DNA of 40,570 nt from a virus. Taxonomy: Duplodnaviria; Caudoviricetes. The DNA lies in IMG/VR virus record IMGVR_UViG_3300020043_004790, positions 1 to 40,570 of that record, one strand, 5' to 3'. Positions within the stretch are counted from its first letter, which is position 1; the number at the start of each line of letters is the position of its first letter. The position numbers and the translations under genes were made by a program. The notes beneath the pieces were generated by a model that was not told the origin of the DNA, searched no databases, and saw nothing but the letters and a program-made list of their open reading frames with translations. Positions 599 through 19,898 of the stretch are shown piece by piece.

Positions 599-627
599 TT
601 GGCAATGTGGGGATAACCGTCTAGTAT
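599..627 (+). promoter_or_regulatory. Sigma70-like promoter for the counter-oriented gene at 711
   Basis: TTGGCA-N17-TAGTAT; DnaA-like TGGGGATAA in the spacer (608-616). Confidence 0.5.
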
Positions 628-710
628 TATGCTAGTGGGTTAGTTTAGTTAAAACCTGCCCAGAGGGTAGAAGCTGGTAGAACCCAGCACCCACACCAAG
701 GAGGAAACAA

Positions 711-941
711 ATGGGAGTTGCAGATTATGCTAAAACTCTAAACCTCTCAGTGGAGCAATTCTTTCACTGGAGCTACAGTCGGGCAGGGCATCTTTATCAA
801 AAAGAGCTACCACCTGACAAAGCGTTTGAACAGTACAAGTTCTGGGGCAAACTCCCCATGTACGTTGTAAGTCAGATGCGCTCTCTCAAACTTGCAGAGA
901 CCTTTAGGAGGATTCGTGAAAAATACACACACGTTTCATGA
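711..941 (+). CDS. Hypothetical protein, moron-like counter-oriented gene
   Basis: 76 aa ORF with SD AGGAGG (699-704), its own promoter and a downstream terminator. Confidence 0.75.
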   Translation: MGVADYAKTLNLSVEQFFHWSYSRAGHLYQKELPPDKAFEQYKFWGKLPMYVVSQMRSLKLAETFRRIREKYTHVS

Positions 942-1012
942 GCAATACTGGTATCTGATGTTTGTTTAGAGAGGAGGTGATTCTCATCTCGCAGCCTAGG
1001 CGTTATTAGGCA

Positions 1013-1042
1013 AAGCACCTCGTCTATTGGGGTGCTTATTTT
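1013..1042. terminator. Intrinsic terminator, probably bidirectional
   Basis: AAGCACCTC-gtctatt-GGGGTGCTT followed by ATTTT, lying between convergent genes. Confidence 0.6.
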
Positions 1043-4752: not shown

Positions 4753-4912
4753 TTGGCAGACGGCATGTGAGTCATCTGCCAAGTTAAACGCACATGCTTT
4801 TAATTTGTTCCTGTAAGTGCTTGCGGTGAGATAGATTTCTGCGGGAGTTCTGCCTCTCTCCTTCGCGCATTTAATTCCATACTATCTATCCCACTCCAAA
4901 CACTCAAGGAAC
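4753..4912 (-). ncRNA. Structured leader of the leftward transcript
   Basis: ~29 bp imperfect stem (4884-4912 with 4807-4836, three G-U pairs on the minus strand) plus 10 bp hairpin 4753-4782. Confidence 0.65.
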
Positions 4913-6014: not shown

Positions 6015-6168
6015 GAAAGCTCGATGAACGATTCCAAAAGTGCGATCTTTGCGGGGTAAAAACATACCCCCCAGCAGCAGGGGTATACAACAGAAACAAG
6101 GATTTATGGACATGCCTACGTTGTCCACAGTCAGATACTAGGAGTTTAGGTCTGTAGATTGTAGTATT

Positions 6169-6239
6169 GAGGTTAATGCACCGTCGGCATTACTTACGCA
6201 TTAACTTCAGTACCCATTTCCCGACGGTGGTGGGTACTG
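6169..6239 (+). ncRNA. Two-hairpin (kissing-loop) cis element upstream of the replication initiator
   Basis: Stems GTTAATGC/GCATTAAC and CAGTACCCA/TGGGTACTG; loops ACCGTCGG and CCGACGGT are complementary. Confidence 0.65.
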
Positions 6240-6256
6240 GATTTAGTACATAAGTT

Positions 6257-6994
6257 ATGGCAAACCGTCGGATGTTTAGTAAAGAAATAACAAACTCGTC
6301 TGAGTTTCAGATGATGTCTCCTTCTGCTCAAGCTTTGTACCTACATATAGGTATGAACTCTGATGATGATGGTTTTTGTGAAGTGTTCACTATTGTGCGA
6401 ATGACGGAAAGCAAACCAGACGATCTAAGGGCATTACATGAACGTGGTTTTGTCTACCTAGTAGATAGCAAGGTCGGTATTGTTAAAGATTGGCATACAA
6501 ACAACGATATACGTTCTGATAGGTATACCCAGAGTAAGTACCTAAATGACCCAAAGTACGGAGAGACATATAAGACAATTATGCAGGATAAGATACAGCA
6601 CCTTTCTAGGTACAAACCACTACTATCTGGTAGTACAAGTGGTATTACACAGGTTAGGTTAGGTAAGGATAGGTTAAATACTGGCGAAGTTGAAACTTCG
6701 CAGGAAATAATAGAAGTCAAAGAAGACCAGAAAGAACCTAAGAAACCAGCTAGGTACAAGAATGCTCGTACTGTCTTTTCGTGGTTCCCGAACCCTCAAA
6801 AGTCGTGGAATATGAATACTACCGAGCTTGAGTACGGCTTACTCCTTTTCGAGCGAGGTGAGGAGAAAGTAAAACAAGCCCTACAGTACGTTAAAAACCA
6901 CTCACAAGAGGAGTTCTTCCCTCAAGTGAATAAACCATCCGACCTTGAGAAGAAATGGTTGGACATAGCTACCTATGCGAAAAGAAACAGTTAA
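6257..6994 (+). CDS. Phage replication initiator / replisome organizer
   Basis: N-terminal MANRRMFSK.I..S..F..M..SAQALY.H.GM..DDDGF and QVRLGKDRL linker, typical of the family; directly upstream of the helicase. Confidence 0.85.
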   Translation: MANRRMFSKEITNSSEFQMMSPSAQALYLHIGMNSDDDGFCEVFTIVRMTESKPDDLRALHERGFVYLVDSKVGIVKDWHTNNDIRSDRYTQSKYLNDPKYGETYKTIMQDKIQHLSRYKPLLSGSTSGITQVRLGKDRLNTGEVETSQEIIEVKEDQKEPKKPARYKNARTVFSWFPNPQKSWNMNTTELEYGLLLFERGEEKVKQALQYVKNHSQEEFFPQVNKPSDLEKKWLDIATYAKRNS

Positions 6995-9207: not shown

Positions 9208-9399
9208 ATGGAGCAACTGATAGAACACGGAACGGTATCAGTAAAACTCACTAACCCAGAAGAGAATATGACCGACCTCCTGCACCTATTCGTTCATATG
9301 GGCTTTGTGGCGAAAATGAGCGAGCAGGAACTCATAGATAACTGCAAACGCGCCGCGGAAGACCAGTATTTTCAAGCAATCGTAACCAACCAACCCTAA
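9208..9399 (+). CDS. Hypothetical protein
   Basis: 63 aa in the operon. Confidence 0.65.
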   Translation: MEQLIEHGTVSVKLTNPEENMTDLLHLFVHMGFVAKMSEQELIDNCKRAAEDQYFQAIVTNQP

Positions 9400-9412
9400 C
9401 TCAAACTTATTT

Positions 9413-9619
9413 ATGGAAACTATTTCACTCAAACAGGCGATAGAAAAGTGTGGGTATGGGTTCCGTTCGCTGTCCCTACACTCGGACGGGCGTTGGATAG
9501 CAAAATCAGGTGCAAAGGCAAAACCACCCTCAAAGTTATTTACCGGCACAACTCCCTTTGAAGCCGTAGAAAAGCTCCTCAGCGCACTCGGGTATCCGGT
9601 AGAGATAAAAGAAGCCTAA
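9413..9619 (+). CDS. Hypothetical phage protein
   Basis: 68 aa; L...IE.CG..F.SL...W.A...G.TP.EAV.KL pattern. Confidence 0.75.
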   Translation: METISLKQAIEKCGYGFRSLSLHSDGRWIAKSGAKAKPPSKLFTGTTPFEAVEKLLSALGYPVEIKEA

Positions 9620-9636
9620 TCAAACTTATATTTCTT

Positions 9637-10035
9637 ATGGCGAATCTTTACATTGAATGCCCGAATATCGTTGCTTCTATGTACGCGCAAACTAAGTTGC
9701 GGGACGTTTTCGGCTTTCAGATTCTCCGAGAAAAACAGAAGCCCCACTTTTCCGACAGGTTCGTAGTAGTTTCACCGCCAAAATACTGTGCTCGCACTCT
9801 CGGTATGTACCCAAAAGAAGACGACCCTTTTGACTGGAAAAGCCGAGAATACCACTACGAAAAGGGGTGTAAGGATTGCGACAAAGTACGAAATGATAAG
9901 CCCGTAATCTGCTATACACCCTCAACAATAGACCAAGACGGCAACGAAACCTACGAGAAAAACCACAAGTGGATTCCGCTAATGGACGCTCTCGCGCTCA
10001 TAAAACTCACAGAAAGTCCCGCGCCAACCAACTAA
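9637..10035 (+). CDS. Hypothetical protein
   Basis: 132 aa in the operon. Confidence 0.7.
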   Translation: MANLYIECPNIVASMYAQTKLRDVFGFQILREKQKPHFSDRFVVVSPPKYCARTLGMYPKEDDPFDWKSREYHYEKGCKDCDKVRNDKPVICYTPSTIDQDGNETYEKNHKWIPLMDALALIKLTESPAPTN

Positions 10036-10065
10036 AACACCCCCCTTTAATTCTTTTTTGATGGT

Positions 10066-10350
10066 ATGGAAAGGAAACGCGCTCTTGCTCTTGAGAAAAA
10101 CGCACTTTCAATAGACGACTGGAGTTCAACCTGCGTGAATTGCGGTCAAGGTGCGATTCCTGAAGAAAAGACCCACGAAAGCGTAATAGGCTATGGTGTA
10201 GCAGACGGCACAAAAGGGTGTGGTATCAAATGGGAGTTTCTTACGAGCATGTACGGGAATAACATAAGCAGTAAGTACGCGGTAGAAATGCGCCCAGACC
10301 TAAAGTGGATTGACTTTACTGAACTCCTAAACCAAGAAATCACCCCCTAA
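10066..10350 (+). CDS. Hypothetical Zn-binding protein
   Basis: CxxC...H...GCG..W. Confidence 0.7.
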   Translation: MERKRALALEKNALSIDDWSSTCVNCGQGAIPEEKTHESVIGYGVADGTKGCGIKWEFLTSMYGNNISSKYAVEMRPDLKWIDFTELLNQEITP

Positions 10351-10387
10351 GAAAAAAGAAACATCTATAGGGGGTAGTGGTTTTTGG
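10332..10387 (+). terminator. Long hairpin, possible terminator
   Basis: ACCCCCTA/TAGGGGGT core with flanking CCAAGAAATCAC/GTGGTTTTTGG pairing. Confidence 0.4.
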
Positions 10388-10390
10388 GGT

Positions 10391-10435
10391 TTATACACAG
10401 GGGTGCTTGACAACCTAAACGCTTGGGTATAGGAT
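10391..10435 (+). promoter_or_regulatory. Promoter with DnaA box and palindromic operator
   Basis: TTATACACA, TTGACA-N17-TAGGAT, spacer ACCTAAACGCTTGGGT; ATG 7 nt after the -10 (leaderless). Confidence 0.7.
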
Positions 10436-10441
10436 ATAGAT

Positions 10442-10663
10442 ATGAAGAAAACAGAATGGATTGCAGAAACCACCCTTACCAAGATTATGAACAACGTAAA
10501 GGTTGTAGACGGAAAAACGATAGCGTGTGTCATGTTTCATAATCGCCCGTGGAAGGTCGTTGCTCATGGTACCGATTTCGCAACGGTTGCAGACCGCGCG
10601 TATGAACCTATTGCAGAATTTAGAACCCGCGAAGAATTGTGGAAGCACCTAAAAACTGTATGA
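10442..10663 (+). CDS. Hypothetical protein
   Basis: 73 aa, probably leaderless. Confidence 0.7.
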   Translation: MKKTEWIAETTLTKIMNNVKVVDGKTIACVMFHNRPWKVVAHGTDFATVADRAYEPIAEFRTREELWKHLKTV

Positions 10664-10950
10664 GATGGTGGCTAGTAATCCGCGAGGAATCTAGTGGCTA
10701 CGACTCGTACCCGATAGAAGTACGTCATGTGGTTGCGGCTAATACTGAAGCAGAGATTTATTCGTTGTTTAACGAACCGGAGCGTCCGGAGTACGGAAAC
10801 CATATTATTCGGGTCTTACCATTCCCGGAACTTCCAAATCTCTCCCGGAAGAAAAAGCCTTATATACTTGCGATAGGAGATTTATGTTTCCGTTGTGAGA
10901 GAGTCCCTGGGGGAATTGTTTATACAGTACCTTGTAGAATTCATGATTAA
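10660..10950 (+). CDS. Hypothetical protein (MRWWLVIREE...)
   Basis: ATGA overlap; C-terminal CxxC...CxxH. Confidence 0.65.
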   Translation: MRWWLVIREESSGYDSYPIEVRHVVAANTEAEIYSLFNEPERPEYGNHIIRVLPFPELPNLSRKKKPYILAIGDLCFRCERVPGGIVYTVPCRIHD

Positions 10951-11089
10951 GAACCCATCAGCAGTAGCACTCGGAAAACTCGGCGGCTCTAAATTATCCG
11001 AGAAAAAAGCTAAAGCCGCCCGTGAAAACGGCAAAAAGGGCGGAAGACCAAAGAAATTAAAAACCCCACACCACAACAAAATAACCTAA
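10943..11089 (+). CDS. Small basic putative DNA-binding protein (AVALGKLGG...ENGKKGGRP)
   Basis: Recurrent phage/MGE motif with an AT-hook-like GRP. Confidence 0.75.
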   Translation: MIKNPSAVALGKLGGSKLSEKKAKAARENGKKGGRPKKLKTPHHNKIT

Positions 11090-11095
11090 CCTAGT

Positions 11096-11266
11096 ATGGA
11101 AATTAAAGAACAAAGAGAATCTGAGTTTTGTGAACATATGAAGGAGCTTGTGGCTATTTGCCGCGAAAAGGAGGTCTTCTTTGGAGGCTGTGGCGATTGT
11201 GGGTCTCCTTGGCTTACCTGCAAAAAGTGCGGTAAGTCAGTAGACAACGCAGGTGATGTATTTTAA
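11096..11266 (+). CDS. Small Cys-rich protein (GGCGDCGSPWLTCKKCG)
   Basis: 56 aa ORF found by hand, two CxxC. Confidence 0.7.
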   Translation: MEIKEQRESEFCEHMKELVAICREKEVFFGGCGDCGSPWLTCKKCGKSVDNAGDVF

Positions 11267-11287
11267 ACCTAATCTAATATAGATGTT

Positions 11288-11803
11288 ATGGAAGAAGACC
11301 AAATCGTTAAGTTGTTTGCGCTGAAGAATGGGTGGCTTTCTGGGTGGCTTAGAAACCAAAAGGAGGCAATGGTTTCTCTTTATGACCGCGAATTCACAGA
11401 CGAGGAGGTTGCTATGCACTGCGTCCGTTTGTCTTCATTTGAGATGAACACGAAAGAGTATCTTCGCCCCGACTTCCTTATGGCGTTCTTTAGTCCGTTC
11501 CCAAAGATAGAGATACTTACCTACCCTGAAATAAGTGCAATTATTGCGGAAAGCCCGATGGTTTCGCCAAAGGTATACGAACAGTCGCGGTATGAAGACG
11601 CTTGGAAGTTCCACATTCAAAAGATGGTCTTGCTCGGAGAAAAACGCTACGACTTTGAAGCAGAACGCCTCAAATACCTCTACCAATTCGTGCCGAAGCA
11701 AGTAATTACACGTTTTGAGGAGTTCAAGAAGGAACAGCGCGACAGAACCTTGGAGAAAATGCGAAAAGAAAACAAGCCACCTAATCCAACCGTAGAGAAA
11801 TAA
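11288..11803 (+). CDS. Hypothetical protein
   Basis: 171 aa. Confidence 0.75.
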   Translation: MEEDQIVKLFALKNGWLSGWLRNQKEAMVSLYDREFTDEEVAMHCVRLSSFEMNTKEYLRPDFLMAFFSPFPKIEILTYPEISAIIAESPMVSPKVYEQSRYEDAWKFHIQKMVLLGEKRYDFEAERLKYLYQFVPKQVITRFEEFKKEQRDRTLEKMRKENKPPNPTVEK

Positions 11804-11807
11804 CTTA

Positions 11808-11927
11808 TGAAGAAGAAGAAACATGACTGTCGGTTTAAACATTTTGACCCATTCACAGCGCTATATATGTGTCATAAACGCTGTGGAGCAACCAGAACTG
11901 ATGTTCAGCGCGCATGGTACAAGTAAC
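11808..11927 (+). CDS. Small His/Cys protein (39 aa)
   Basis: MKKKKHDCRFKHFDPFTALYMCHKRCGATR... Confidence 0.5.
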
Positions 11928-12028
11928 CACCAACCCTATGAGTAAGAAGAAAGTTGGGGATAACAAATAAAACATCCCAAAAGTATGCTTTAATAAATAC
12001 AGTACCTTGAAAAGAAACATATAGAGGA

Positions 12029-12425
12029 TTGAGAGTGGGTGGGGGAAGCTGAGCGTACGGGGTGCGTTAACACCTGTCAGCCCCCTCCACCTGCTCTTAA
12101 TATCTAGGATGTTGTTGGGGCGCGATTTGTAATCGCGTGGTGAGCGCAAAGCTAACTCACCAGCTTGCTGAAAAACTAACGCTAGGACAAAGCAAGTCCC
12201 GCTCCACCAGCACCTTAGAACCAGTTTGAGCATAGAGAGGGGGAGTATAGTTTGCAAAACACACGTTCGTCATGCCGATTTCTAGATAGGAGACGAGAGA
12301 CCTTCGGGGACGTGATGGTGGTGTTAATAGCCACATCTCCCTCTCTGTGCTTAGAACCTTACATCCTGTTCGTGCCTTAAATTCATCAGGAAACTGGTGG
12401 AACTTGGACAGGGCGTGAACAGGAT
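12029..12425 (+). ncRNA. Tandem array of four long-stem structured RNA domains (unknown family)
   Basis: Domains 12029-12100, 12104-12218, 12226-12354 and 12363-12425, each closed by a 16-19 bp stem whose non-Watson-Crick positions are nearly all G-U on the + strand; internal UUCG and GAAA hairpins; no + strand ORF in the track. Confidence 0.75.
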
Positions 12426-12449
12426 ATAGAGTTTTAATCAGATAAAAAG

Positions 12450-12599
12450 ATGATATATACCTGTACAAAATGCGATAAAGAAACAAATACCATCTACTCA
12501 TGGCCTCTTCCTGGAGACCCAGGCCCTAAAGAAGCCCTATGTCCAAGATGTATGAGTATGACCGACCATGTATGGAAAAGACAGGCGGACGGTATATAA
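12450..12599 (+). CDS. Small Zn-ribbon protein (49 aa)
   Basis: MIYTCTKCDK...LCPRCM. Confidence 0.6.
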   Translation: MIYTCTKCDKETNTIYSWPLPGDPGPKEALCPRCMSMTDHVWKRQADGI

Positions 12600-12606
12600 A
12601 TACAAC

Positions 12607-12645
12607 TGTGGATAAACATTGACAATATGTAATGTTATATTTAAT
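12607..12645 (+). promoter_or_regulatory. groEL promoter with perfect DnaA box
   Basis: TGTGGATAA 3 bp before TTGACA; AT-rich TG-TTATATTTAAT -10 region. Confidence 0.6.
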
Positions 12646-12664
12646 ACATAATCAACCATAAAAC

Positions 12665-14170
12665 ATGTATCTAGGAAAAAAGATTTCAACAGGTGTTGAG
12701 GCACGAATGAAGGTAAAAGCAGGTGTTGATAAGCTTGCAGACGCAGTAAAGTCAACACTAGGCCCGTTTGGAACCAATGCTCTCATTGAGAAAGGACTAC
12801 GTGTCACAAATGACGGAATTAAGATCACACAGGAGTTTACTCTAAGTGATGAGATAGAAGATTTGGGGGTACGTAAAGTAAAGGAAGCAGCAGCTAAATC
12901 AAATGACGAGGTAGGAGATGGATCAACCACTATCGTTACCCTAATCCAATCTATCCTAAAGGAAAGTCAAAGAAACCTAGGAACAGACAAAACTGTAGGT
13001 GGAAAAATGAGTACTGCAGATTTCATACGTAAGATTAAGGCAGAATGTGCAGAAGTAATCGAGAAACTAAAAGAACAAGCAACTCCAATTAACACAGAAG
13101 AAGAGCTTATTCGTTCTGCAGTAGTATCTGTAGAGGATGAAGAGCTAGGTAAGCTTATTGGTTCTACACAGTTTGCTATTGGCAAGGAAGGATACTTGAT
13201 TGCTGAGGAGGTACCAGAGCGCGAATGTTCTGTAGAGCGTGTACACGGTGTACGTATAGACAATGGTCTAGGAATGACACAGGTAATGAACAATGTAGAG
13301 AAACAAATGCTCGAAGTGGAGGATGTACGTACTATCCTAACCAGCCACACAATCCAGTCTCTTGAGGCTCTGAAGCCTATTCTCGAACAGCTCCTAAAGA
13401 ACAAGCAGACAAAGGTAGCTATTATTGCCCGTGGATTTACAGACAAAGCAATCCAAGACTGTGCAGCTAACATCAAGCAAGGCTTTGAAATTTATCCGAT
13501 AAACGCACCATACACAGACTCACGAGAGGTAATGCTAGACCTAGCCTCAGTACTTGGAGGACAGTTCTACGATAGTGAGACCCACGATCTCGATGACATG
13601 CAACTCTCAGATGTTGGACTAGCACAAAAGATCCGAGCACGTAGATACGATGCTATCTTCACAGGAAAACACGGTGCTGACAGTGACAAAGTACAAGAAC
13701 GAGTAGCCAAGCTAGAGGAACAACTTGCAGGATCAAACTCAGACTTCGAGAAGAAGATGCTAGGAGGTAGAATTGCCCAGCTAAAGAATGGTTTTGCCCT
13801 AGTCAAAGTAGGTGCTTCAAGCGACACAGAACGAAAGCGTATCTTCGACAAGGTAGAAGATGCTGTAAACGCAGTACGCGCAGCCCTACAGGAAGGAACA
13901 GTAAAAGGAGCCGGTCTAGCATATAAAGAGATTGCAGACGCTATGCCAGATGACTACATCCTTAAACGACCACTCCTTTCAATCCACGAACAAATAATGG
14001 CAAATGCCCCAGCAGACTTCGTAGTAGAAGATTGGGTACGAGACCCTGTAAAGGTACTTCGCGTAGCACTAGAGCAAGCATGTTCAGTAGCAGGAGACCT
14101 AGCAACAGTATCCGTAGCTATCCACACCGAACGAGACAGGGGTTGTAAACACGACAATAGTGTAGAATAA
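12665..14170 (+). CDS. groEL: Chaperonin GroEL/Cpn60 homologue
   Basis: GVDKLADAVKSTLGP, VTNDG, GDGSTT, R.A.L..G.A..KVGA, VEDAVNA.RAA..EG.V.G.G, V.DP.KV.R.AL..A.SVA. Confidence 0.96.
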   Translation: MYLGKKISTGVEARMKVKAGVDKLADAVKSTLGPFGTNALIEKGLRVTNDGIKITQEFTLSDEIEDLGVRKVKEAAAKSNDEVGDGSTTIVTLIQSILKESQRNLGTDKTVGGKMSTADFIRKIKAECAEVIEKLKEQATPINTEEELIRSAVVSVEDEELGKLIGSTQFAIGKEGYLIAEEVPERECSVERVHGVRIDNGLGMTQVMNNVEKQMLEVEDVRTILTSHTIQSLEALKPILEQLLKNKQTKVAIIARGFTDKAIQDCAANIKQGFEIYPINAPYTDSREVMLDLASVLGGQFYDSETHDLDDMQLSDVGLAQKIRARRYDAIFTGKHGADSDKVQERVAKLEEQLAGSNSDFEKKMLGGRIAQLKNGFALVKVGASSDTERKRIFDKVEDAVNAVRAALQEGTVKGAGLAYKEIADAMPDDYILKRPLLSIHEQIMANAPADFVVEDWVRDPVKVLRVALEQACSVAGDLATVSVAIHTERDRGCKHDNSVE

Positions 14171-19299: not shown

Positions 19300-19503
19300 A
19301 TGAACGCATATCCTTGGGCACAGAACCGTTTGAAGCTCGAACGAGCAATCGAAGCAGTACGCCTTGAAAACAAGGACTTCACTGCAGAAGATGTTAAACG
19401 ATATTACGTAGACGTTCTTAAAGGTGCACTCCAGTTCGTGGATGAACCTAAGAAAGACGTTGAAATAGTAGTTAAAAAAGATAAGAAATCAAAGAAAAAA
19501 TGA
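19300..19503 (+). CDS. Hypothetical protein
   Basis: 67 aa, ATGA coupled (preceded by a 31-aa ORF at 19208-19303). Confidence 0.7.
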   Translation: MNAYPWAQNRLKLERAIEAVRLENKDFTAEDVKRYYVDVLKGALQFVDEPKKDVEIVVKKDKKSKKK

Positions 19504-19898
19504 TATTGTCGCTTGTACTGTGGTTCATCAGGAGAAAAAACCTGTCAGACAAAGACAGGAACAAGGTAGTTACTACTCTTTTAGAGAGTATTGATGCACC
19601 ACCATTACAAGCACTTATCAGCGTAGACGAAAATAGGCGTGTTTTAGTGAAAGGTAAGCCACTTTCTGTCGAGCAGATACAAGCTCTTCGTGAGAGTGCC
19701 TCAGCCGTACTAAACTCAACAGCCCGTAATCTTATCCATGAACAGGTCAGATATGCAGCAATAGACACAGGGTTCCTAAAGAACGGTACCGGAGACTTAT
19801 ACAGTCAATTGTTCTACAAAGCTGCACTTTGGACTGCACAAGAAGAAGATAATCTACTACGCGCACTCGCCTCAGAGGATATACACACCTTGACGTAA
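19500..19898 (+). CDS. Hypothetical head-region protein
   Basis: 132 aa. Confidence 0.75.
   Translation: MILSLVLWFIRRKNLSDKDRNKVVTTLLESIDAPPLQALISVDENRRVLVKGKPLSVEQIQALRESASAVLNSTARNLIHEQVRYAAIDTGFLKNGTGDLYSQLFYKAALWTAQEEDNLLRALASEDIHTLT

What the first reader, a model, noticed from the sequence alone, without database searches (positions are those of the whole stretch)
12029..12425. Cassette-like array of four long-stem-closed, branched RNAs upstream of groEL
Seen: four back-to-back domains separated by only 3-8 nt. D1 (12029-12100): TTGAGAGTGGGTGGGGG pairs with CCTCCACCTGCTCTTAA, 17 bp, 4 G-U, no mismatch. D2 (12104-12218): 19 positions, 3 G-U, 2 mismatches, enclosing three hairpins (CGCGAT/ATCGCG, TGGTGAG/CTCACCA, CTTGCT/AGCAAG) in a four-way junction. 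D3 (12226-12354): 19 bp, 4 G-U, multi-branched with a C-UUCG-G loop. D4 (12363-12425): 16 bp, 3 G-U, with an inner GAAA tetraloop. Of 16 non-Watson-Crick positions, 14 are G-U on the + strand, which argues for selection on RNA rather than on DNA palindromes. D2 and D3 both end in CTTAGAACC. The cores share no obvious sequence and I recognise none as tRNA, tmRNA, CRISPR or a known ribozyme. Inference: a polycistronic precursor cut at the long stems (RNase III-like) to release several distinct small RNAs, such as decoys or sponges for host defence or RNA-binding proteins. This is the best candidate for an undescribed system in the window.
Basis: partly seen in the sequence, partly recalled or inferred. 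Interest (0 to 1): 0.85.

Follow-up and report, generated by a model that had tools for sequence, protein, structure and literature searches.

The report
Swappable stem-clamped RNA modules in phage
An uncultured 40-kb phage carries four side-by-side stretches predicted to fold into separate RNA modules, each shut by a long helix; close relatives have lost or replaced single modules, and the modules are likely cut apart by a host enzyme into small RNAs that match no catalogued family.

Summary
The four stems are real, far beyond chance, and favour the + strand: fold z -6.7, 14 G-U pairs among 16 non-Watson-Crick positions. The window is a complete 40.6-kb phage, probably of Patescibacteria. The array lies between a variable block of small accessory genes and the groEL-terminase block. 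Near-identical relatives show modular turnover: in one contig D3 is absent at a 9-nt repeat, D2's core is replaced by one of equal length and D1 by 246 other bases; in D4 the closing helix changes only between U-A and U-G. D4's inner GAAA hairpin recurs in five unrelated phage records, in three inside closing stems of wholly different sequence. D1-D3 and a fifth unit (4906-4814) end in a motif resembling the RNase III proximal box, but only under a relaxed definition, without enrichment in related phages, and one relative breaks it. There is no Rfam hit, no tRNA, and no expression data. Best reading (0.4): RNA cassettes released by host RNase III that likely act as protein-binding RNAs. Main rival (0.3): uncut cis-acting mRNA elements. 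The architecture is well supported; processing and function are untested.

The parts
12028..12101 (+). Module D1: 18-bp closing helix around a short irregular hairpin; replaced by 246 other bases in a near-identical relative that keeps its last 8 nt
12103..12219 (+). Module D2: closing helix with 2 mismatches around a four-way junction; a relative keeps the 5' arm and has a different 92-nt interior (93 nt here)
12225..12355 (+). Module D3: 20-bp closing helix, ambiguous multibranch interior; absent from this position in two relative contigs
12363..12425 (+). Module D4: 16-bp closing helix, asymmetric internal loop, GAAA-capped hairpin
12383..12400 (+). D4 cargo hairpin (18 nt), found identical at 6 sites in 5 unrelated phage records
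12214..12222 (+). First copy of the 9-nt junction repeat CTTAGAACC
   Evidence: junction used in relatives
12350..12358 (+). Second copy of the 9-nt junction repeat; the relative lacking D3 rejoins the window exactly at 12350
10407..10435 (+). Sigma70-like promoter match (10 of 12), candidate start of the transcript that would carry the array; such matches are not above chance in number
11986..11994 (+). Extended -10-like site, alternative and weak promoter candidate just upstream of D1
11807..11970 (+). Two tiny Lys-rich ORFs (39 and 10 codons) directly upstream of the array
12450..12599 (+). 49-codon CxxC..CxxC ORF directly downstream of D4
   Evidence: no Pfam family over its cut-off
12613..12641 (+). 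Promoter-like site in front of groEL, separating groEL from the array
12665..14170 (+). Phage GroEL-like chaperonin gene (context)
4814..4906 (-). Fifth stem-closed unit (E) at the head of the leftward gene block, with the same UGAG/CUUA helix end; a 264-nt stretch containing it is skipped in a relative contig

Best explanation
This is a gene-free array of four modules, each predicted to fold on the + strand into its own RNA domain shut by a 16-20 bp helix, that relatives lose or exchange one at a time and that is likely cut apart by the host's RNase III into separate small RNAs, which would act by binding proteins. Shown: the pairing, its strand bias, and loss or replacement of single modules at shared junction sequence in near-identical phages; the D4 hairpin reused inside unrelated clamps in other phages. 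Inferred: transcription as part of the rightward message from the accessory-gene block (promoter-like site 10407-10435); exchange by recombination at shared arms and the 9-nt repeat; cutting two pairs inside the outer end of D1, D2 and D3 (after about 12029/12101, 12104/12219 and 12226/12355), which would leave end-protected RNAs of about 72, 115 and 129 nt; D4 freed by the D3 cut or left as leader of the 12450 ORF. Most speculative: the cargo are fast-turning decoys for host or rival-phage RNA-binding proteins, the RNA equivalent of the small accessory genes beside them.
For: Fold statistics and strand bias. One search, run X1 contig 1: identical over 11850-12016, 246 other nt in place of 76, identical over 12093-12120, 92 other nt in place of 229, rejoining at the repeat at 12350. 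X1 contig 2: a D2-like 3' arm sits directly before D4. D4 closing helix: listed changes 12410 A>G (X1 contig 1) and 12419 A>G (X2 contig 5) turn U-A into U-G; the loose end of X1 contig 2 differs at four helix positions, all A/G opposite a U of the window's 5' arm (read by hand), while the internal loop varies freely. The neighbouring ORF block shows joints that skip whole ORFs. D4 core: of 95 exact 16-mer loci only 3 have an enclosing stem of 11 bp or more, and these are 3 of the 4 that extend to the 19-mer; random positions reach such a stem score in 0.9%; their stems differ on both sides at 10 of 14, 12 of 12 and 4 of 11 pairs. In phage G051 a comparable stem encloses a tRNA. Relaxed proximal-box motif two pairs from the outer end in D1, D2, D3 (per-stem shuffle probability 0.028, 0.007, 0.030) and at the base of the upper helix of E (0.023) against 2 of 93 other phage stems. 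Box definition from PMC1540722 (passages); the distal box is dispensable for Aquifex RNase III (PMC3074117, passages). RNase III is present in 5 of 5 Patescibacteria genomes checked. Their class's pre-16S stalks carry a central W-W-W-GC motif in 18 of 26 against 10.4 in shuffles.
Against: No RNA ends or strand data. The box definition was relaxed (G-U allowed) after seeing the stems; 0 of 5 stems meet the strict version and D4 fails even the relaxed one. No enrichment among 93 stems of related phages (2 seen, 1.26 expected, p 0.37). D1-D3 arms are partly similar to each other, so the three matches are not independent. In X1 contig 2 the D2-like 3' end has G where the box needs U; a C-G pair there blocks E. 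coli and Aquifex RNase III. The helices stop two pairs beyond the box, whereas typical substrates have two helical turns. Host-type stalks mostly have U-A at the position where the phage has G-U. The D4 hairpin sits between late genes in G051 and G052, a cis-type position. The three closest IMG/VR relatives inspected lack the array upstream of groEL, so it is dispensable. No protein partner was identified.
Confidence: 0.4

Rival explanations
1. The array stays uncut and works in cis inside the long rightward message: stacked helices act as exonuclease roadblocks, antitermination or translation-control elements that set expression of the downstream CxxC ORF and the groEL-terminase block. The D4 hairpin would be a protein-binding or stabilising element.
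For: The D4 hairpin lies directly after stop codons between late genes at three sites in two other phages, and right after a TATAAT in a third. No terminator-like site follows D4. Analogous stem-closed domains in relatives precede small ORFs.
Against: Interiors are swapped wholesale for unrelated sequence while the flanks stay identical, which is unexpected for one regulatory leader. groEL has its own promoter-like site. Three close relatives have no array there.
Confidence: 0.3
2. The modules are released as separate RNAs, but by single-strand endonucleases or trimming in the short A/U-rich linkers; the helices only clamp and protect the ends, and the shared UGAG/CUUA ends reflect common descent of the arms.
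For: Strict RNase III box not met, no family-wide enrichment; D1 and D2 3' arms and the D2/D3 ends share sequence; stems in other arrays end in other motifs.
Against: The linkers are very short (one unpaired base between the extended D1 and D2 helices). The same end motif recurs in unit E, 7 kb away on the other strand, and in a G051 domain.
Confidence: 0.17
3. The modules are Y-RNA-like or tRNA-like decoys for a Ro60/RNA-repair pathway of the host.
For: Paired 5' and 3' ends. In G051, which carries two D4 hairpins and a D1-like stem end, the array lies directly upstream of a Ro60 (TROVE) and a Band-7 gene; the G053 array follows a Band-7 gene.
Against: No GNCGAA(N)G or GGUCCGA motif on the + strand and no T-loop motif; no tRNA; no TROVE among 47 ORFs of this phage; TROVE in only 1 of the 5 D4-hairpin records.
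Confidence: 0.07
4. The stems are DNA palindromes, chance, or by-products of the two minus-strand ORFs.
For: Two open frames of 134 and 114 codons overlap the region on the - strand.
Against: G-U pairs on + become mismatches on -; changes in relatives keep U-G pairs; neither ORF has a Pfam, PHROG or locus match; the 114-codon ORF has no homologue.
Confidence: 0.04

Closest known systems
RNase III processing signals of phage T7 early mRNA (R0.3-R1.3) and the minimal substrate uR1.1 (PMC1540722, passages; PMC3867540, passages)
   Same: Phage intergenic helices in a polycistron; at least 11 bp of helix next to a proximal-box-like W, R-U, W, G-C run; D4 has the same overall shape (GNRA-capped upper stem, asymmetric loop, lower stem) as the T7 hairpins folded from V01146.
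   Different: T7 sites are simple hairpins between protein genes; here the helices enclose 30-90 nt of structured cargo, abut each other and are exchanged between relatives. The strict box and the distal box are not met; D4's upper stem (8 bp) is shorter than the 11 bp minimum.
Leader-trailer processing stalks of bacterial pre-16S rRNA (examined here in 29 Paceibacteria-class genomes)
   Same: A long helix formed by the two flanks of an RNA cargo; W-W-W-GC motif within the helix.
   Different: Stalks are 21-39 bp with the motif central and a fixed cargo; the phage helices are 16-20 bp with the motif two pairs from the end and variable cargo.
Bacterial Y RNAs (YrlA), also phage-encoded (PMC4201824, passages)
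   Same: Small RNAs with paired ends; one D4-carrying phage has its array next to Ro60.
   Different: No Ro60-binding motif, no tRNA-like arms, no Ro60 gene in this phage.
Large ornate phage-associated RNAs GOLLD/ROOL (PMC12286853, search listing and start of abstract only)
   Same: Structured non-coding RNA in phage-type DNA, function open.
   Different: Those are single conserved RNAs in Rfam (recalled); this is a chain of independent, exchangeable modules with no Rfam match.

Membership tests
RNase III substrate | Helix of at least 11 bp beside the cut site | tested here: met
   16-18 bp inside the predicted cut for D1-D3; minimum from PMC1540722
RNase III substrate | Strict E. coli proximal box (A-U/U-A, A-U, A-U/U-A, G-C counted from the cut) | tested here: not met
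   0 of 5 stems; each of D1, D2, D3, E has one G-U in place of an A-U. Box order is my mapping of the paper's numbering onto T7 sequence
RNase III substrate | Relaxed proximal box (G-U tolerated) at a fixed register | tested here: inconclusive
   D1, D2, D3 at offset 2 and E match, D4 does not; 2 of 93 other stems; definition set after seeing the data; broken in one relative
RNase III substrate | Distal box U-G/U-A at pairs 9-10 | tested here: not met
   Pair lists; dispensable in Aquifex
RNase III substrate | About two helical turns around the cut for double cleavage | tested here: not met
   D1-D3 helices end two pairs beyond the box; half-sites are cleavable in vitro
RNase III substrate | Host encodes RNase III | tested here: inconclusive
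   5 of 5 Patescibacteria genomes that hold terminase relatives have it; the true host is only inferred (7 of 18 loci)
RNase III substrate | Enzyme-dependent cleavage with 2-nt 3' overhang | not testable with these tools
   No raw RNA reads laid
Bacterial Y RNA (YrlA) | GNCGAA(N)G motif near the 5' end | tested here: not met
   None on +, one on - at 12271; motif from PMC4201824
Bacterial Y RNA (YrlA) | Ro60 gene within 4 kb on the same strand | tested here: not met
   No TROVE among 47 ORFs scanned
Bacterial Y RNA (YrlA) | tRNA-like D and T arms | tested here: not met
   ARAGORN 0 genes; no T-loop motif
Known Rfam families (ribozymes, riboswitches, tRNA, tmRNA, 6S, SRP, GOLLD etc.) | Score at the family's gathering threshold | tested here: not met
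   0 in the window; 4 sub-threshold eukaryotic matches at E 0.046-7
Repeat-spacer guide arrays (CRISPR, TIGR; definition recalled) | Conserved repeats separating constant-length spacers, with an effector gene nearby | tested here: not met
   Only a 9-nt two-copy repeat; modules 63-131 nt; no repeat family for the array among the 20 largest; no effector domain
CsrA/RsmA sponge sRNA (motif recalled) | Several ANGGA motifs in loops | tested here: not met
   None on +

The most novel reading that the evidence does not exclude
Phages of Patescibacteria keep a cassette system for non-coding accessory genes: standard double-stranded clamps, read by host RNase III, into which unrelated RNA cargoes are swapped by recombination at shared arms. 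The released RNAs are a pool of decoys against host defence or RNA-binding proteins, and the D4 hairpin is one cargo that circulates among unrelated phages.
Probability: 0.25. Interest if true: 0.85.

Novelty: new variant of a known kind. Interest (0 to 1): 0.58.

Why it matters
Phage accessory regions are mined for small anti-defence proteins, while their non-coding stretches are ignored. Here near-identical phages exchange folded RNA modules as units next to exchangeable small genes, which marks the RNAs as selected accessory functions. The clamp-and-cargo layout gives exact, testable cut positions and a short conserved hairpin to use as bait for its protein partner. It would also be among the first RNA-level mechanisms for phages of Patescibacteria, if that host inference holds.

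Tried and rejected
Expression: no RNA holder is on record; raw-read runs X7 and X8 laid 0 reads from about 1% of each run, which is no test. The 212-nt X1 contig at depth 84.5 that covers only array sequence is not evidence of expression, since contigs break at branch points and X1 may hold DNA. Homologues of D1-D3 cores: none by blastn in cultured phages, in fetched loci or in 50 related virus records (50 of 69 intended; best E 0.009, short matches). Pattern for the D4 closing stem: 0 loci. Pattern for D2 arms: 119 loci, none resembling D2 beyond the pattern. Pattern for D1 ends: 2 loci, one coding chance match and one already known G051 domain. Degenerate D4-core pattern: 73 loci, 46 distinct contexts; beyond the three D4-type hits they are coding matches, terminator-like hairpins or plain intergenic hairpins, so core invariance is partly built into the search. 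No compensatory variants of the core in 1.58 Mb of related loci. D4 core as a host element: 2 of 401 Patescibacteria genomes at one mismatch, not inspected further; no match to 30 16S loci in either sense; in cultured phages 17 short matches, all in coding genes or unannotated records. Antisense targets in the phage's own genome: only 10-14 nt chance matches. GroEL scans of viral and metagenome collections gave 0, 21 and 8 loci, none with the array. In PMC10690425 the main text (find) and 6 supplementary files lack the motif, but files 1, 2 and 4, which may hold the alignments, could not be searched, so prior listing as an anonymous candidate is not excluded; its groEL-adjacent candidate DNAVirus_8400 lies within 25 bp of groEL, unlike this array. 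The 134-codon minus-strand ORF was not searched against the large protein database.

Full report
Setting. The window is a whole virus record of 40,570 bases, 100% complete by CheckV. Pfam and PHROG scans of 47 ORFs give a phage plan: ERF, RecA, DnaD-like, DnaB and NinG genes, a block of small unknown ORFs at 9.3-11.9 kb, then GroEL (12665), ParB-methylase, terminase and capsid genes. The terminase has at least 250 relatives in IMG/VR and the GroEL 613. Of 18 terminase loci in genome bins, 7 are in Patescibacteria-labelled bins and the rest are scattered; the host is therefore inferred, not shown.

Observation. The region folds at -171.5 kcal/mol (z -6.74; 0 of 100 shuffles as good) on + and z -3.05 on -. 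Each domain alone gives z -4.0 to -5.7 on +. The four stems are the best four of the window; 296 of 300 shuffles hold no comparable stem. The 14 G-U and 2 mismatch tally is exact. Helices and the D2 junction are well defined, D3's interior is not, and its UUCG hairpin has about 2% probability. There is no Rfam hit at gathering score, only four weak eukaryotic matches, and no tRNA or tmRNA. The minus-strand ORFs match no family or locus, and the 114-codon one has no homologue.

Close relatives show modular exchange. Four public runs hold near-identical phage DNA. On 11850-12750, one X1 contig is identical to 12016, has 246 other bases in place of 76, is identical again over 12093-12120 (D1's last bases and D2's 5' arm), has 92 other bases in place of 229, and rejoins at 12350, the first base of the second CTTAGAACC. 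The distance from 12121 to the first copy is 93 bases, so the simplest reading is a D2-type clamp with another interior and no D3. A second X1 contig has a D2-like 3' arm directly before D4, again without D3. I could not see the replacement letters. In D4 the listed changes in the closing helix are U-A to U-G; the second contig's 3' arm differs at four positions, all A/G opposite a U of the window's 5' arm, although six of its seven differences in 12352-12399 are not listed, so partner changes cannot be excluded. The internal loop varies heavily while 12384-12399 shows no listed change in the two contigs that span it. Joints in the adjacent accessory block skip whole ORFs, so RNA modules and small genes turn over alike. 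The three closest IMG/VR relatives inspected lack the array upstream of groEL.

The D4 cargo travels. An exact 16-mer scan gave 95 loci. Three have an enclosing stem of 11-14 bp at D4-like spacing, and these are 3 of the 4 that extend to 19 bases; random positions reach that stem score in 0.9%. Their stems differ from the window's on both sides at 10 of 14, 12 of 12 and 4 of 11 pairs and share an A/U-rich 5' loop; as the clamps may be of separate origin this is not covariation in the strict sense. Two of these (L285, L294) lie in arrays of further stem-closed domains, one (L234) follows a TATAAT. The same 18-mer tops intercistronic hairpins between late genes in G051 (twice) and G052. The five records have no terminase match to this phage; four share a distant protein. 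The motif is not a common host element (2 of 401 genomes at one mismatch). Because the scan demanded the motif, its invariance is partly built in, and variants occur in ordinary terminator-like hairpins.

Same layout, other content, in the wider family. Unrelated stem-closed domains lie upstream of groEL or the terminase in L068 (two abutting domains with near-identical clamps), L022, L021, L012, L050, L333, L342 and L347; ten loci scanned gave no Rfam hit. By a strict score, abutting pairs occur in only 3 other loci of the 136 examined, so four in a row is unusual. In G051 an array includes a tRNA inside a closing stem and a domain with D1's helix end, upstream of Ro60 and Band-7 genes.

Mechanism. 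PMC1540722 (passages) defines for E. coli RNase III an 11-bp helix with a proximal box of G-C, A-U/U-A, A-U, A-U/U-A and a distal box, and a C-G pair at box position 2 as inhibitory; PMC3074117 (passages) shows the distal box is dispensable in Aquifex; the B. subtilis preprint 10.1101/2023.03.12.532304 (passages) finds similar preferences. Mapping that numbering onto T7 sequence, D1, D3 and unit E read U-A, G-U, A-U, G-C and D2 reads U-A, A-U, G-U, G-C; in D1-D3 exactly two more pairs follow, as a staggered cut would need. Per-stem shuffle probabilities are 0.007-0.03 and only 2 of 93 other stems match, both in D4-hairpin phages. Against this: the definition was relaxed after the fact, no stem meets the strict box, the 93 stems show no enrichment (p 0.37), the arms are related to each other, and one relative has G at the critical position. 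Candidate hosts have RNase III (5 of 5), and 26 of 29 pre-16S loci have 21-39 bp stalks with a central W-W-W-GC motif in 18 of 26 (10.4 expected, p 0.001, genomes not independent), similar but not identical to the phage motif. I put RNase III release at 0.4, an uncut cis role at 0.3, other release at 0.17, Y-RNA-like decoys at 0.07 and artefact at 0.04. The decoy function is inference from turnover and position only.

Novelty. No described family matches, and nine paper searches found no account of such arrays or of the D4 motif; three supplementary files of the largest viral RNA catalogue were not searchable. Earlier notes of this scan report similar clamp-and-cargo arrays in other phages; they are unchecked leads and share no sequence with this one, but suggest a recurring uncatalogued class. 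It works like a processing-stalk system and is not shown to be a member of any RNA family. Verdict: real, modular and undescribed; processing plausible; function open. Interest 0.58.

Noticed in passing
L430 6422-5743, - strand (G051): Array of stem-closed RNA domains upstream of Ro60 and Band-7 genes; one stem encloses a tRNA with UCA anticodon (6147-6221), and its flanks look like a circularly permuted tRNA (T arm before, D arm after). The same phage has 19 tRNAs at 463-2866.
   Followed up: partly
window 4906-4745, - strand: Fifth stem-closed unit plus a 20-bp hairpin at the head of the leftward genes; second-best structured window of the genome (z -6.5); skipped in a relative contig.
   Followed up: partly
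window 9300-11950: Block of small ORFs whose relatives skip single ORFs at short shared junctions: a cassette-like accessory-gene region.
   Followed up: partly
window 608, 11955, 12607; L002 2807, L004 662: DnaA-box-like 9-mers (label recalled) just upstream of promoter-like sites in this phage and relatives.
   Followed up: no
L002 2851-2901 and L004 710-756: In two relatives the equivalent position holds a single long hairpin whose 5' arm overlaps a -10-like hexamer 17 bases after TTGACA.
   Followed up: no
window 11938-11970; L012 about 6953-6988; L021 about 6672-6704: Tiny Lys-rich ORFs of about 10 codons directly upstream of stem-closed domains in three phages.
   Followed up: no
window 6164-6263 and 19501-19620: Overlapping alternative long stems just before the DnaD-like gene, and a strong both-strand hairpin region at the start of ORF 19500.
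   Followed up: no
window 600-1040, + strand: A 76-codon rightward ORF with a strong ribosome-binding motif and several hairpins, running against the leftward gene block.
   Followed up: no
L342 4000-4166: Stem-closed domain holding two near-identical inner hairpins.
   Followed up: no
window 12665-14170: Divergent phage GroEL family of about 500 aa; no GroES gene was detected among the 47 ORFs scanned.
   Followed up: no
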